64,000 nt of DNA from Escherichia coli (GTDB lineage Bacteria; Pseudomonadota; Gammaproteobacteria; Enterobacterales; Enterobacteriaceae), in NCBI RefSeq assembly GCF_030384885.1, contig NZ_CP128613.1; one strand, 5' to 3'. Position 1 is the first letter of the stretch; every line of letters starts with the position of its first letter. Shown here in pieces: positions 16,111 through 61,754 of the stretch. The notes under the pieces were generated by a model. That model worked only from the letters and a program-made list of their open reading frames with translations, had not been told where the DNA came from and searched no databases. The position numbers and the translations under genes were made by a program.

Positions 16111-16225
16111 AAGATAAAAAGTATTCAGAATCAGGCCGGGGCGTCTCGCGCTCCGTAAACACGGTCGTACATCCAGCCGGTAGCCTGGTTCCTTGCATTG
16201 AGTGATGTACGGAGTTTATAGAGCA

Positions 16226-22824: not shown

Positions 22825-23601
22825 ATGTCCGAAACAAAAAACGAACTTGAAGACCTGCTGGAAAAAGCAGCAACCGAACCGGCGCACCGCCCGGCCTTTT
22901 TCCGTACTCTACTGGAATCCACTGTCTGGGTACCAGGTACGGCGGCGCAGGGCGAGGCAGTGGCTGAAGATAGCGCGCTTGATTTACAGCACTGGGAAAA
23001 AGAAGACGGTACCAGCGTCATTCCTTTTTTCACCTCGTTAGAAGCACTGAAACAGGCGGTTGAAGACGAACAGGCGTTTGTCGTAATGCCCGTTCGCACA
23101 CTGTTTGAGATGACCCTTGGCGAAACGCTCTTCCTTAATGCCAAATTGCCAACCGGTAAAGAGTTTATGCCGCGTGAAATCAGTTTGTTGATTGGTGAAG
23201 AAGGAAATCCGCTGAGTAGTCAGGAAGTACTGGAAGGCGGTGAATCGCTGATATTATCGGAAGTCGCAGAGCCGCCAGCGCAAATGATTGATTCACTCAC
23301 CACCTTATTTAAAACCATTAAGCCGGTGAAGCGTGCTTTTATTTGTTCAATTAAAGAGAACGAAGAGGCACAGCCTAATTTACTTATTGGTATTGAAGCC
23401 GATGGCGATATCGAAGAAATTATTCAGGCGGCGGGAAGTGTAGCGACCGATACATTACCTGGTGATGAACCAATAGATATTTGCCAGGTGAAAAAAGGGG
23501 AAAAAGGAATTAGCCACTTTATTACCGAACATATTGCGCCATTCTATGAACGTCGCTGGGGTGGATTCCTGCGTGATTTTAAACAGAATCGAATAATTTA
23601 A
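22825..23601 (+). CDS. sseB: Rhodanese-enhancing protein SseB
   Basis: 258 aa from ATG 22825 (MSETKNELEDLL...); the track ORF starts 3 codons earlier at GTG. Confidence 0.8.
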   Translation: MSETKNELEDLLEKAATEPAHRPAFFRTLLESTVWVPGTAAQGEAVAEDSALDLQHWEKEDGTSVIPFFTSLEALKQAVEDEQAFVVMPVRTLFEMTLGETLFLNAKLPTGKEFMPREISLLIGEEGNPLSSQEVLEGGESLILSEVAEPPAQMIDSLTTLFKTIKPVKRAFICSIKENEEAQPNLLIGIEADGDIEEIIQAAGSVATDTLPGDEPIDICQVKKGEKGISHFITEHIAPFYERRWGGFLRDFKQNRII

Positions 23602-23603
23602 AA

Positions 23604-23628
23604 TATGCCGCCCCAAAGGGCGGCATTC
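23604..23628 (-). terminator. Hairpin terminator at 3' end of minus-strand ryfA transcript (also follows sseB)
   Basis: gccgcccc-aaa-gggcggc stem-loop; U-rich tract follows on the minus-strand RNA. Confidence 0.5.
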
Positions 23629-23905
23629 GGGCTTACTTGCTGTTCTGAAGGTTGTTAACCATCAGTAAATTGTTGCCGGAGGGACTCCGGTTATTATTTA
23701 CTTCGGAAAACAGCGCACCAGAAACAATAAGTACGATACAGAAGTACCGTATCTTCATTGTGCGGTCCATGCGAAGACCGCATCACGACAGCACCACTGG
23801 CGATATTGCCGCGATAGCAAGCGCTGTGGGGTGCCTGCATTTACGGTCATGGAACATCCTTTCCTAAAGCCAGCGCCCGTTTGCGAGACGGCGAAAAGGG
23901 CCGTC
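23625..23905 (-). ncRNA. ryfA: ryfA small RNA / mRNA of small toxic protein (boundaries approximate)
   Basis: Conserved sseB-sseA spacer of about 500 bp; K-12 ryfA maps between sseA and sseB; contains a minus-strand small hydrophobic ORF and ends at hairpin 23606-23623; 5' end not determinable from sequence. Confidence 0.5.
23632..23769 (-). CDS. Small hydrophobic protein, type I toxin-like (TimP-like), inside ryfA
   Basis: My own minus-strand translation: MDRTMKIRYFCIVLIVSGALFSEVNNNRSPSGNNLLMVNNLQNSK (45 codons; alternative start at second Met gives 41 aa); single predicted TM/signal-like segment; below the 60-aa cutoff of the ORF track; weak SD. Confidence 0.4.
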
Positions 23906-57752: not shown

Positions 57753-58390
57753 TTACTCGTCGGCAGCGTAGCCCTGCGGCGGCAGACGTTGACCATCCAG
57801 CCACGCGGCGTTTTCGTGCATTTTCAGACGACCATCGGCAAACCAGCTAATTACCAGTGGATAAATAGCGTGTTCCTGGGTTTGCACGCGGGCGGTGATG
57901 TCATCCTCCGTATCACCAGCAAATACCGGGACTTTCGCCTGTAAAATAACCGGGCCACCGTCCAGTTCATCGGTGACGAAATGCACCGATGTACCGTGCT
58001 CTTCATCGCCATTTTCCAGCGCCTGACGATGGGTGTGTAATCCGGGATATTTCGGCAGCAGAGAAGGGTGAATGTTCAGCAAACGCCCGGCATAGTGGGA
58101 GACAAACGCCGGGCTGAGAATGCGCATAAAACCCGCCAGCACGACCACATCGGGTGCGTACATGTCGATTTCATGAATCAACTCCCGGTCATAGGCTTCA
58201 CGACTGTCAAACGCGCTGGCGATGAGCGTATGCGTTGCAATACCCGCCTGGCGGGCGCGTTCAAGGCCGAACGCGTCGGCCTTATTGCTGAAAACTGCCC
58301 GTACGGTGCCTTTAATTTTATTGGTTTTGCAGGCGTCAATAATTGCCTGCAAATTACTTCCGTTGCCGGAAATAAGCACCACAATATTCA

Positions 58391-58391
<1 letters not shown>
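57753..58391 (-). CDS. purN: Phosphoribosylglycinamide formyltransferase
   Basis: 212 aa; MNIVVLISGNGSNLQAII N-terminus. Confidence 0.95.
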
Positions 58392-59446
<1,055 letters not shown>

Positions 59447-59488
59447 TTACTTGCGGTAGAAAAATAAAATTCGGCGCAATTCTAACAG

Positions 59489-59508
59489 GGAAAGCAAACG
59501 TTTGCGAG
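59489..59508. promoter_or_regulatory. PurR operator (pur box) upstream of purMN
   Basis: aaagcaaacgtttgcgag contains the palindromic GCAAACGTTTGC core of the PurR consensus. Confidence 0.55.
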
Positions 59509-59704
59509 ACTGCTTTACACAACCTTTTTGTACGTCTTTTCCCCAGGCGCGCGGCAAAAGAATACTTGTACCAGGGCAAAGGATCGTTTTCGGATGGAAT
59601 AATCTTCTTCCATAACCATTTGAATATAAAATAACTTTATCTCAAACCGTTATCATTTTGACTAAAGTCAACGAAAATAATATTGCCGCCTTGAAGAAAG
59701 GAGG

Positions 59705-59726
59705 TATAATCCGTCGATTTTTTTTG
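59705..59726 (+). promoter_or_regulatory. upp promoter -10 (TATAAT) with T8 reiterative-transcription tract in the initially transcribed region
   Basis: tataatccgtcGATTTTTTTTG 27 bp upstream of upp ATG; UTP-sensitive start-site selection is described for upp. Confidence 0.6.
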
Positions 59727-60464: not shown

Positions 60465-61754
60465 ATGACGCGCCGTGCTATCGGGGTGAGTGAAAGACCG
60501 CCACTTTTACAGACAATCCCGCTTAGTTTGCAACATTTGTTCGCCATGTTTGGTGCAACCGTCCTGGTGCCCGTCTTATTTCATATTAACCCGGCGACTG
60601 TACTGTTATTTAACGGTATAGGAACGCTGCTGTATCTCTTCATCTGTAAAGGGAAAATCCCGGCTTATCTTGGTTCCAGCTTTGCCTTTATTTCACCGGT
60701 ATTGTTACTGTTGCCGTTAGGGTATGAAGTCGCGCTGGGCGGCTTTATTATGTGCGGCGTGCTGTTCTGCCTGGTTTCTTTTATCGTGAAGAAAGCGGGG
60801 ACTGGCTGGCTGGACGTGCTGTTTCCGCCAGCGGCAATGGGCGCAATCGTTGCCGTCATCGGTCTGGAACTGGCGGGCGTAGCTGCCGGTATGGCGGGGT
60901 TACTCCCGGCTGAAGGGCAAACTCCAGACTCCAAAACCATCATCATCTCTATTACCACCCTGGCAGTCACGGTTTTAGGTTCCGTGCTGTTTCGTGGTTT
61001 CCTGGCAATTATCCCAATTTTAATTGGTGTGCTGGTAGGGTATGCGCTCTCTTTCGCAATGGGGATTGTCGATACCACCCCGATTATTAACGCCCACTGG
61101 TTTGCGCTGCCAACTCTCTATACGCCGCGCTTCGAGTGGTTTGCCATTCTGACTATTCTGCCAGCGGCGCTGGTGGTCATTGCCGAGCACGTAGGGCATC
61201 TGGTAGTAACGGCTAATATCGTCAAAAAAGATCTGCTACGCGATCCGGGTCTGCACCGTTCGATGTTCGCTAACGGCTTGTCGACTGTGATCTCCGGCTT
61301 CTTTGGCTCCACGCCAAACACCACCTACGGGGAAAACATTGGCGTTATGGCGATCACCCGCGTTTACAGTACCTGGGTTATCGGTGGGGCGGCGATTTTC
61401 GCTATCCTGCTTTCCTGTGTCGGTAAATTGGCTGCCGCTATCCAGATGATCCCGCTGCCGGTGATGGGCGGCGTTTCGTTGCTGCTTTATGGTGTTATCG
61501 GTGCTTCCGGTATTCGTGTTTTGATCGAATCGAAAGTGGATTACAACAAAGCACAGAACCTGATCCTGACTTCCGTGATTTTGATCATCGGTGTCAGTGG
61601 CGCGAAGGTAAACATCGGCGCGGCGGAGCTGAAAGGTATGGCGCTGGCGACCATCGTCGGTATCGGCTTAAGTTTGATCTTCAAACTGATTAGTGTGCTG
61701 CGCCCTGAAGAAGTGGTGCTGGACGCAGAAGACGCGGATATAACAGACAAATAA
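60465..61754 (+). CDS. uraA: Uracil:H+ symporter
   Basis: 429 aa from ATG 60465 ([16 protein letters not shown]...); NCS2 family. Confidence 0.95.

What the first reader, a model, noticed from the sequence alone, without database searches (positions are those of the whole stretch)
59489..59508. PurR operator upstream of purMN
The palindromic core GCAAACGTTTGC sits in the purM upstream region at the expected position for purine repression of the purMN operon.
Basis: partly seen in the sequence, partly recalled or inferred. Interest (0 to 1): 0.2.

Follow-up and report, generated by a model that had tools for sequence, protein, structure and literature searches.

The report
Known PurR operator of purMN

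Summary
The window is E. coli chromosome. GCAAACGTTTGC occurs once, at 59494-59505, in the purM-upp intergenic region. On the purM (-) strand the 16-mer 59507..59492 reads TCGCAAACGTTTGCTT. That is letter for letter the PurR motif published for purM-purN from ChIP-chip, where occupancy rises with adenine (Cho et al. 2011).

A PurR weight matrix built without this site scores it 17.3 bits. About 0.0005 such hits are expected in the 325-bp intergenic region.

Anchoring on purM in 120 reference genomes, a box of at least 13 bits lies at a fixed distance upstream in 26/26 Enterobacterales, 11/11 Vibrionales and 2/2 Aeromonas. It is found in 0/77 other lineages, and in 0.9% of control segments.

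In 27 enteric sequences only two upstream blocks are invariant: the box and an extended -10 (TGnTAGAAT) exactly 7 nt downstream. The operator therefore covers roughly -36 to -21, and bound PurR would block RNA polymerase.

Side lead, inconclusive: an 18.2-bit PurR-like box lies inside uraA (60841-60856). uraA is reported as PurR-dependent, but no site has been assigned to it.

The parts
59492..59507 (-). 16-bp PurR operator (PUR box) of purMN. It reads TCGCAAACGTTTGCTT on the purM strand and AAGCAAACGTTTGCGA on the + strand.
   Evidence: Identical to the published purM-purN ChIP-chip motif. Scores 17.31 bits with the leave-one-out matrix. The core is invariant in 27 enteric sequences.
59494..59505 (.). 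Perfect 12-bp palindromic core GCAAACGTTTGC with a central CpG at 59499/59500.
   Evidence: Unique in the window. The sequence was read directly.
59479..59487 (-). Inferred extended -10 element TGTTAGAAT of the purM promoter. TG is at 59487-59486 and the hexamer TAGAAT at 59484..59479. It starts 7 nt after the operator ends.
   Evidence: CTGnTAGAAT is invariant in 27 enteric sequences, and TGnTA..AT is kept in Vibrionales and Aeromonas. The simple promoter scan did not call it because the -35 match is weak. Its role as the -10 is inference.
59471..59475 (-). Likely purM transcription start interval (A at 59471 or G at 59475), preceded by a conserved GC-rich stretch TGCGCCG at 59478..59472.
   Evidence: Derived from literature numbers. 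Grainger 2007 places the FNR centre at -192.5 from the purM start, and Liu 2011 places the site 28 nt upstream. Mapped through the K-12 alignment. The two sources differ by 4 nt, and this was not measured here.
59437..59441 (-). Shine-Dalgarno GGGGA of purM, 8 nt before the GTG start.
   Evidence: Sequence read directly. The GGG core is conserved in the enteric alignment.
58391..59428 (-). purM coding sequence (GTG start; [19 protein letters not shown]...), the first gene of the regulated operon.
   Evidence: ORF list. RefSeq annotates purM here. The first 100 aa are identical to K-12.
57753..58391 (-). purN coding sequence, the second gene of the operon. Its ATG overlaps the purM stop.
   Evidence: ORF list. 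The purM-purN transcription unit is named.

Best explanation
The site is the operator of the purMN operon for the LacI-family purine repressor PurR. When hypoxanthine or guanine is abundant, the corepressor-bound PurR dimer binds the 16-bp box at 59492-59507. From established structural work on PurR-operator complexes, each helix-turn-helix reads a GCAAAC half-site in the major groove, and the hinge helices enter the minor groove at the central CpG and kink the DNA.

The box ends 7 nt upstream of the purM -10 hexamer. It therefore covers about -36 to -21 (or -32 to -17), which is the -35 position and most of the spacer of a TGnTAGAAT extended -10 promoter. Bound PurR would keep RNA polymerase off the promoter and lower purM-purN transcription. 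When purines are scarce, PurR loses its corepressor, leaves the DNA, and the operon is expressed.

Shown here or in the literature I read: sequence identity with the in vivo bound site, adenine-enhanced occupancy, lineage-restricted conservation, and fixed spacing to the conserved -10.

Inferred: steric occlusion as the repression mechanism, the exact transcription start, and the assignment of the -10.
For: (1) The 16-mer is identical to the PurR motif reported for purM-purN in K-12 ChIP-chip. Enrichment was 2.08 with adenine and 0.98 without, and the authors single out purMN as strongly adenine-dependent.
(2) Deleting AAACGTTTGCTT from a multicopy clone of this intergenic region lowers its PurR-titration phenotype. 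A purR deletion mimics the titration.
(3) A matrix built from the 27 other published sites scores the site 17.31 bits. That is inside the 12-25 bit range of the published sites, with 0.0005 expected in the intergenic region.
(4) A box of at least 13 bits lies upstream of purM in 26/26 Enterobacterales, 11/11 Vibrionales and 2/2 Aeromonas, but in 0/77 other lineages. Only 0.9% of control segments reach that score. Two of these orders are ones reported to have PurR orthologues, and Shewanella and Pseudomonas are reported to lack them.
(5) The footprint shows only two invariant upstream blocks in 27 enteric sequences: TCGCAAACG(T/A)TTGC and CTGnTAGAAT.
(6) The box-to--10 gap is exactly 7 nt in 27/27 enterics but 18 or 16 nt in Vibrionales and 23 nt in Aeromonas, while the box sequence is kept. 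The box is therefore conserved as a protein-binding site and not as a -35 element.
(7) The 44-nt operator-plus--10 segment is identical in 5,363 of 5,422 matching E. coli genomes. All 10 K-12/window differences lie upstream of the operator.
(8) Reviews and RegulonDB describe PurR repression of purMN with hypoxanthine and guanine as corepressors.
Against: Nothing contradicts it, but there are limits.
- The matrix score alone is not decisive at window scale (0.09 expected per 64 kb; random 64-kb sequences reach about 15.6 bits).
- The primary in vitro binding paper (He et al. 1990) and the primary purR-dependence paper (Meng et al. 1990) could not be read, so those points rest on secondary citation.
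- The transcription start is uncertain by 4 nt because the two literature numbers disagree.
- The simple promoter scan found no purM promoter. One genomic-SELEX paper lists a different, computationally assigned purM promoter further upstream (ATGATA-17-TATTTT).
- Steric occlusion at this promoter is inferred from geometry and was not measured.
Confidence: 0.97

Rival explanations
1. The palindrome is a chance occurrence with no function.
For: Perfect 12-bp palindromes are common (17 in the window). A 16-mer consensus search allowing 3 mismatches finds as many hits as chance. A 17-bit matrix hit is expected 0.09 times per 64 kb.
Against: This exact 12-mer is expected 0.02 times per window. A hit of this strength is expected 0.0005 times in the purM-upp intergenic region. 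The box is invariant across 27 enteric sequences while its flanks cannot be aligned. It is the published in vivo PurR-bound motif.
Confidence: 0.005
2. The conserved block is a core promoter element (-35 or upstream element) of purM rather than a repressor site.
For: With a 17-nt spacer, the first six bases of the box (TCGCAA) fall at the -35 position of the TAGAAT hexamer. Promoter elements are also conserved.
Against: TCGCAA matches TTGACA at only 3 of 6 positions. The conserved block is 14 bp and palindromic, much longer than a -35 hexamer. In Vibrionales and Aeromonas the same box sits 9-16 nt further from the -10, so its register relative to the promoter is not conserved while its sequence is. 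The promoter has a conserved TG extended -10, which typically makes a good -35 dispensable (established knowledge).
Confidence: 0.01
3. The box is primarily the target of another LacI-family paralogue with a similar motif (RbsR, GalR/GalS or CytR), and PurR is secondary.
For: PurR arose by duplication of RbsR and kept the ancestral DNA motif. GalR binds PurR-like boxes at the purR gene in vivo.
Against: The GalR ChIP-chip list does not include purM. PurR ChIP-chip does, with adenine dependence. Box presence follows the reported PurR-bearing orders plus Aeromonas, and the box is absent from all other sampled lineages. Minor cross-binding by RbsR is not excluded.
Confidence: 0.01
4. The operator serves both divergent units, repressing upp-uraA as well as purMN.
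For: uraA falls 17.6-fold with adenine and changes 2.04-fold on purR deletion, with no site assigned. The box lies in the shared intergenic region.
Against: The box centre is about 217 nt upstream of the upp start region (59716-59717). That is too far for occlusion. PurR is a dimer with no known looping ability (established knowledge). Cho et al. assign the peak to purM-purN only. This would add to the main explanation rather than replace it.
Confidence: 0.05

Closest known systems
E. coli K-12 purMN PurR operator (RegulonDB/EcoCyc site; He et al. 1990; Cho et al. 2011)
   Same: It is the same object. The 16-mer is identical, as is the DNA from the operator through the purM start, and the neighbours are the same: purN-purM on one side, upp-uraA on the other.
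   Different: Nothing in the operator or core promoter differs. This strain has 10 substitutions relative to K-12, all further upstream in the intergenic region.
cvpA-purF operator, the archetypal PUR box used in PurR-DNA crystal structures
   Same: It is a 16-bp near-palindrome with a central CpG flanked by AAA/TTT. It overlaps the core promoter and is repressed with hypoxanthine or guanine as corepressor.
   Different: The sequence is AAGAAAACGTTTGCGT, against TCGCAAACGTTTGCTT here. purMN has the more symmetrical 12-bp core but poorer outer positions (17.3 vs 23.0 bits).
xanP operator (TGGCAAACGTTTGCTT)
   Same: The sequence is almost identical, differing at one of 16 positions, and the matrix score is the same (17.3 bits).
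   Different: It controls a xanthine transporter and was found only by ChIP-chip in 2011.
purB and purR intragenic PurR operators (roadblock type)
   Same: They use the same repressor and the same motif.
   Different: Those sites lie inside transcribed or coding DNA and block elongation. The purMN box lies upstream of the start and should block initiation. They are the relevant precedent for the uraA-internal box noted in passing.
Bacillus subtilis / Lactococcus PurR and PurBox
   Same: The name is the same, and so is the physiological role of controlling pur genes.
   Different: That protein is unrelated (PRPP-sensing, not LacI family), and its DNA motif is different. The site here is not a member of that system.

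Membership tests
PurR (LacI-family purine repressor) operator / PUR box | 16-bp imperfect palindrome matching the PurR consensus (ACGCAAACGTTTTCNT / ACGNAAACGTTTGCNT). | tested here: met
   There are 2 mismatches to ACGCAAACGTTTTCNT on the purM strand. The site scores 17.31 bits with a matrix built from 27 other sites, within the 12-25 bit range of published sites.
PurR (LacI-family purine repressor) operator / PUR box | Central CpG step flanked by A/T runs, where the hinge helices intercalate and kink the DNA. | tested here: met
   AAACGTTT is centred at 59499/59500. The structural role is established knowledge summarised and was not tested here.
PurR (LacI-family purine repressor) operator / PUR box | Located in the control region of a purine or pyrimidine regulon gene, usually overlapping the -35 to -10 region. 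| tested here: met
   The site is 71.5 nt upstream of the purM start. It ends 7 nt before a conserved TGnTAGAAT. Cho et al. state that PurR sites generally lie between -35 and -10.
PurR (LacI-family purine repressor) operator / PUR box | Occupied by PurR in vivo in a purine-dependent way. | not testable with these tools
   This comes from the literature for the identical K-12 sequence: ChIP-chip log2 2.08 with adenine and 0.98 without. Identity of the DNA was checked.
PurR (LacI-family purine repressor) operator / PUR box | Bound in vitro by purified PurR with hypoxanthine or guanine (gel shift or footprint). | not testable with these tools
   This is attributed to He et al. 1990. The paper itself is not held.
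PurR (LacI-family purine repressor) operator / PUR box | The downstream operon is repressed by purines in a purR-dependent way. | not testable with these tools
   Meng et al. 1990 is known here by title only. Cho et al. list purMN among the IMP-pathway genes repressed by PurR-hypoxanthine.
PurR (LacI-family purine repressor) operator / PUR box | The site is conserved upstream of the orthologous gene in lineages that encode PurR and absent where PurR is absent. | tested here: met
   39/39 Enterobacterales, Vibrionales and Aeromonas loci have the box, against 0/77 other lineages. The false-positive rate is 0.9%. Those papers name Enterobacteriales, Pasteurellales and Vibrionales, and Aeromonas was not covered there. 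The presence of purR in each sampled genome was not checked.

The most novel reading that the evidence does not exclude
The purM operator itself is fully explained. The most novel reading left open concerns its neighbourhood. The 18.2-bit PurR-like box inside the uraA coding sequence (60841-60856), 1.35 kb away, may be a real second operator. It would act as a purB-style transcriptional roadblock on the divergent upp-uraA operon. That would give a direct mechanism for the PurR- and adenine-dependent uraA expression that Cho et al. reported without assigning a site.
Probability: 0.1. Interest if true: 0.3.

Novelty: already known. Interest (0 to 1): 0.05.

Why it matters
It matters little beyond confirming that the scan and its reader can recognise a real regulatory site from sequence alone. 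The purMN operator has been in the literature since 1990 and in RegulonDB, and ChIP-chip confirmed it in 2011.

The comparative results add modest detail. The box-to--10 spacing is rigidly 7 nt across enteric genera but 16-23 nt in Vibrionales and Aeromonas. The purM promoter is a conserved extended -10 type with a GC-rich stretch after the -10.

The only item that could lead to something new is the unassigned PurR-like box inside uraA.

Tried and rejected
- Literature access. I tried to read the primary operator paper (He et al. 1990, by PubMed id and PMC213288) and Mironov et al. 1999; neither is held. I looked for an experimental purM start in Thomason et al. 2015 (not held) and in the Cho et al. 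supplements (none held).
- Scripts.
- Promoter scan. The generic scan found only the upp promoter and no purM promoter, because the purM -35 is weak. I relied on the phylogenetic footprint instead.
- Palindromy as evidence. I rejected it because 17 perfect 12-bp palindromes occur in the window, about as many as chance predicts.
- Consensus with mismatches as evidence. I rejected it because it performs at chance level.
- The uraA-internal box as a conserved element. It looks striking in a subset chosen after the fact (it lies in the longest invariant run of uraA), but it is unremarkable in an unbiased 12-taxon set, so I left it as inconclusive.
- A suspected PurM amino-acid variant (ALVGRIKG). 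It turned out to be identical in K-12; my recollection was wrong.
- Literature positions. The FNR site is given as -51.5 and -61.5 from the upp start. Grainger's FNR coordinate is 4 nt off from the position I derive from the sequence. I therefore give the purM start as an interval.

Full report
**1. What is in the sequence**

The window is E. coli chromosome. The 601 bases around the finding match 5,424 of 5,426 complete E. coli genomes, and RefSeq annotates purM and upp there.

The local gene order is ppk, purN and purM on the - strand, then upp, uraA and hda on the + strand. purM starts at the GTG at 59428, which is the same base as the RefSeq start in K-12.

The core GCAAACGTTTGC occurs once in the window, at 59494-59505, where shuffles expect 0.02 copies. 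On the purM strand the site reads TCGCAAACGTTTGCTT.

**2. Is it more than chance?**

Palindromy alone is not evidence. The window has 17 perfect 12-bp palindromes, about as many as 64000/4^6 predicts. The textbook consensus with up to 3 mismatches finds 4 hits where 3.1 are expected.

I built a weight matrix from the 27 other PurR motifs in Table 1 of Cho et al. 2011, leaving purMN out. The results were:
- The site scores 17.31 bits, inside the 12-25 bit range of the published sites.
- The exact per-position probability is 7e-7. That gives 0.09 expected per 64 kb on both strands and 0.0005 in the 325-bp purM-upp intergenic region.
- Three hits of at least 16.9 bits occur in the window where 0.12 are expected. 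Two are known operators, purMN and guaBA. The third lies inside uraA (section 7).

**3. It is the published site**

Cho et al. list, for the purM-purN transcription unit, the motif TCGCAAACGTTTGCTT at MG1655 2,619,140-2,619,155. ChIP-chip enrichment is 2.08 with adenine and 0.98 without. They name purMN among the promoters whose occupancy depends most on adenine.

Liu et al. 2011 identify the same sequence as the PurR site of purM. They show that deleting AAACGTTTGCTT from a multicopy clone of the intergenic region reduces its protective titration effect, which a purR deletion mimics.

A K-12 copy of the region is collinear with the window. It differs at 10 positions, all upstream of the operator, so the operator, -10 region, 5' UTR and start codon are identical. 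RegulonDB's evidence paper and a 2024 review treat PurR repression of purMN as established, with hypoxanthine and guanine as corepressors. I could not read the primary in vitro binding paper.

**4. Independent comparative test**

I anchored on the conserved PurM N-terminus ([15 protein letters not shown]) with a degenerate DNA pattern. This returned 120 loci from reference genomes. I scored the 330 nt upstream of the anchor with the leave-one-out matrix:

| Lineage | Loci with a box of at least 13 bits | Distance of box centre from anchor |
|---|---|---|
| Enterobacterales | 26 of 26 | 85-98 nt in 24; 153 and 163 nt in two with leader insertions |
| Vibrionales | 11 of 11 | 98-108 nt |
| Aeromonas | 2 of 2 | 108-109 nt |
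| Other lineages (Shewanella, Pseudoalteromonas, Halomonas relatives, Cellvibrionales, alpha- and epsilon-proteobacteria) | 0 of 77 usable | best score 11.3 bits |

In size-matched control segments of the same loci, 22 of 2,531 (0.9%) reach 13 bits. Seven of those 22 are the recurring uraA box.

This distribution fits published reports. PurR orthologues are described in Enterobacteriales, Pasteurellales and Vibrionales, and as absent from Shewanella oneidensis and Pseudomonas aeruginosa. I did not check for purR in each sampled genome.

**5. Anatomy of the promoter**

An alignment of 27 enteric upstream regions, including the window, shows two invariant blocks upstream of the ribosome-binding site: TCGCAAACG(T/A)TTGC and CTGnTAGAAT. 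Everything further upstream cannot be aligned.

The second block reads as an extended -10 (TGnTAGAAT). In the window the hexamer is at 59484..59479 on the - strand.

The gap between the end of the box and the hexamer is:
- exactly 7 nt in 27 of 27 enteric sequences;
- 18 nt in ten Vibrionales and 16 nt in Aliivibrio;
- 23 nt in both Aeromonas.

The box sequence is kept while its register relative to the promoter changes. It is therefore conserved as a protein-binding site and not as a -35 element.

For the transcription start I have only literature-derived numbers. Grainger et al. place the FNR site at -192.5 from the purM start, which maps to window 59475. Their FNR coordinate is 4 nt off from the sequence-derived one. 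Correcting for that gives 59471. That value agrees with Liu et al.'s '28 nt upstream' (box centre at -28.5) and puts TAGAAT at -13 to -8.

Either way, the operator spans about -36 to -21, or -32 to -17. That covers the -35 position and most of the spacer.

Two results do not fit this promoter assignment. The generic promoter scan did not call it, because the -35 match is only 3 of 6. Shimada et al. list a different, computationally assigned purM promoter further upstream. The phylogenetic footprint does not support that alternative.

**6. Mechanism**

The best-supported reading is the classical one. Corepressor-bound PurR dimer binds the box and occludes RNA polymerase at an extended -10 promoter, lowering purMN transcription when purines are plentiful.
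- Shown: sequence identity with the bound site, adenine-dependent occupancy, and conservation.
- Inferred: occlusion, from the geometry and from what is known of other PurR-controlled promoters.

Rival readings are each unlikely, for reasons given in their own entries:
- a chance palindrome;
- a pure promoter element;
- a site for a paralogous LacI-family protein;
- an operator shared with upp-uraA.

**7. Side observations**

(a) *A PurR-like box inside uraA.* A box at 60841-60856 (- strand ACGGCAACGATTGCGC) scores 18.16 bits, higher than the purMN operator. It differs by one base from the published yieG site.
- It encodes G-A-I-V-A-V within an invariant UraA peptide.
- Cho et al. report uraA as 17.6-fold repressed by adenine and 2.04-fold affected by purR deletion, 'direct or indirect'. 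They list no peak there.
- The 16-mer is identical in Citrobacter, Enterobacter and Leclercia, although third-codon identity to E. coli is only 0.55-0.61. It lies in the longest invariant run of uraA in that subset.
- That subset was chosen after seeing the site. E. albertii has a mismatch. In an unbiased 12-taxon set the window is unremarkable.
- I rate this as inconclusive.

(b) *guaBA operator.* The known guaBA PurR motif GCGTAACCGATTGCAT is at 46485-46500, in the xseA-guaB intergenic region.

(c) *FNR site and upp promoter.* The FNR site TTGACTAAAGTCAA is at 59657-59670. The upp promoter TTGCCG-16-TATAAT is at 59683-59710, followed by a T8 run.

(d) *Rfam.* The Rfam scan finds only ryfA, the iscRS element and sroE elsewhere in the window.

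**8. Verdict**

The feature is already known, and interest is very low.

Noticed in passing
window 60841-60856 (- strand), inside uraA: A PurR-like box, ACGGCAACGATTGCGC, scores 18.16 bits, higher than the purMN operator, where 0.05 are expected per window. uraA is reported as adenine-repressed and purR-affected with no site assigned. The 16-mer is identical in Citrobacter, Enterobacter and Leclercia despite roughly 57% third-codon identity. It is not conserved in other enterics, and an unbiased test is unremarkable.
   Followed up: partly
window 46485-46500 (- strand), xseA-guaB intergenic region: GCGTAACCGATTGCAT scores 16.93 bits and is identical to the published guaB-guaA PurR ChIP-chip motif. 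It lies about 54-69 nt upstream of the likely guaB start.
   Followed up: partly
window 59657-59670: This is the FNR site TTGACTAAAGTCAA upstream of upp, known from ChIP-chip. The literature disagrees on its position relative to the upp start (-51.5 in Grainger 2007, -61.5 in Liu 2011). Grainger's coordinate is 4 nt off from the sequence-derived one.
   Followed up: partly
window 59683-59725: The upp promoter TTGCCG-16-TATAAT is followed by CCGTCGA and a run of eight T. From memory, this is the arrangement described for UTP-sensitive start-site selection and reiterative transcription of upp (Tu and Turnbough 1997). I did not check this here.
   Followed up: no
window 59472-59478 (- strand TGCGCCG): A GC-rich stretch lies between the purM -10 hexamer and the start. 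It is conserved in core Enterobacteriaceae (TGCGCCG) and in Vibrionales (AGCGCCG), but lost in Providencia, Moellerella, Photorhabdus and Xenorhabdus. Such discriminators are typical of promoters inhibited by ppGpp/DksA, which hints at stringent control of purM.
   Followed up: no
loci L015-L117 versus window 59479-59507: The spacing from the PurR box to the -10 hexamer is fixed at 7 nt in 27 enteric sequences. It is 18 nt (16 in Aliivibrio) in Vibrionales and 23 nt in Aeromonas. In Vibrio the right half of the box (TTGCTA) itself resembles a -35 hexamer with an 18-nt spacer.
   Followed up: partly
window 59620-59655 (- strand): Shimada et al. 2014 list ATGATA-17-TATTTT as the purM 'constitutive promoter'. 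It lies about 150 nt upstream of the conserved TGnTAGAAT, and the enteric footprint does not support it.
   Followed up: partly
window 23600-23904 (-), 16115-16224 (+), 36753-36844 (+): The Rfam gathering-score matches are ryfA sRNA, the iscRS stability element and sroE sRNA, as expected for this part of the E. coli chromosome.
   Followed up: no
L009 and L066 (Shewanella), about 313-321 nt upstream of the purM anchor: Two Shewanella loci share an 11.3-bit box, TACTAAACGTTTTCGT. S. oneidensis is reported to lack PurR, so this may be a site for another LacI-family regulator or for the neighbouring gene.
   Followed up: no
L020 (Escherichia albertii), 5.3 kb from the purM anchor: AGGCAATCGCTTCCGG scores 15.9 bits and is the reverse complement of the published yfgO/yfgC PurR motif. 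By coordinate arithmetic, the E. coli equivalent lies about 800 nt beyond the end of this window.
   Followed up: no
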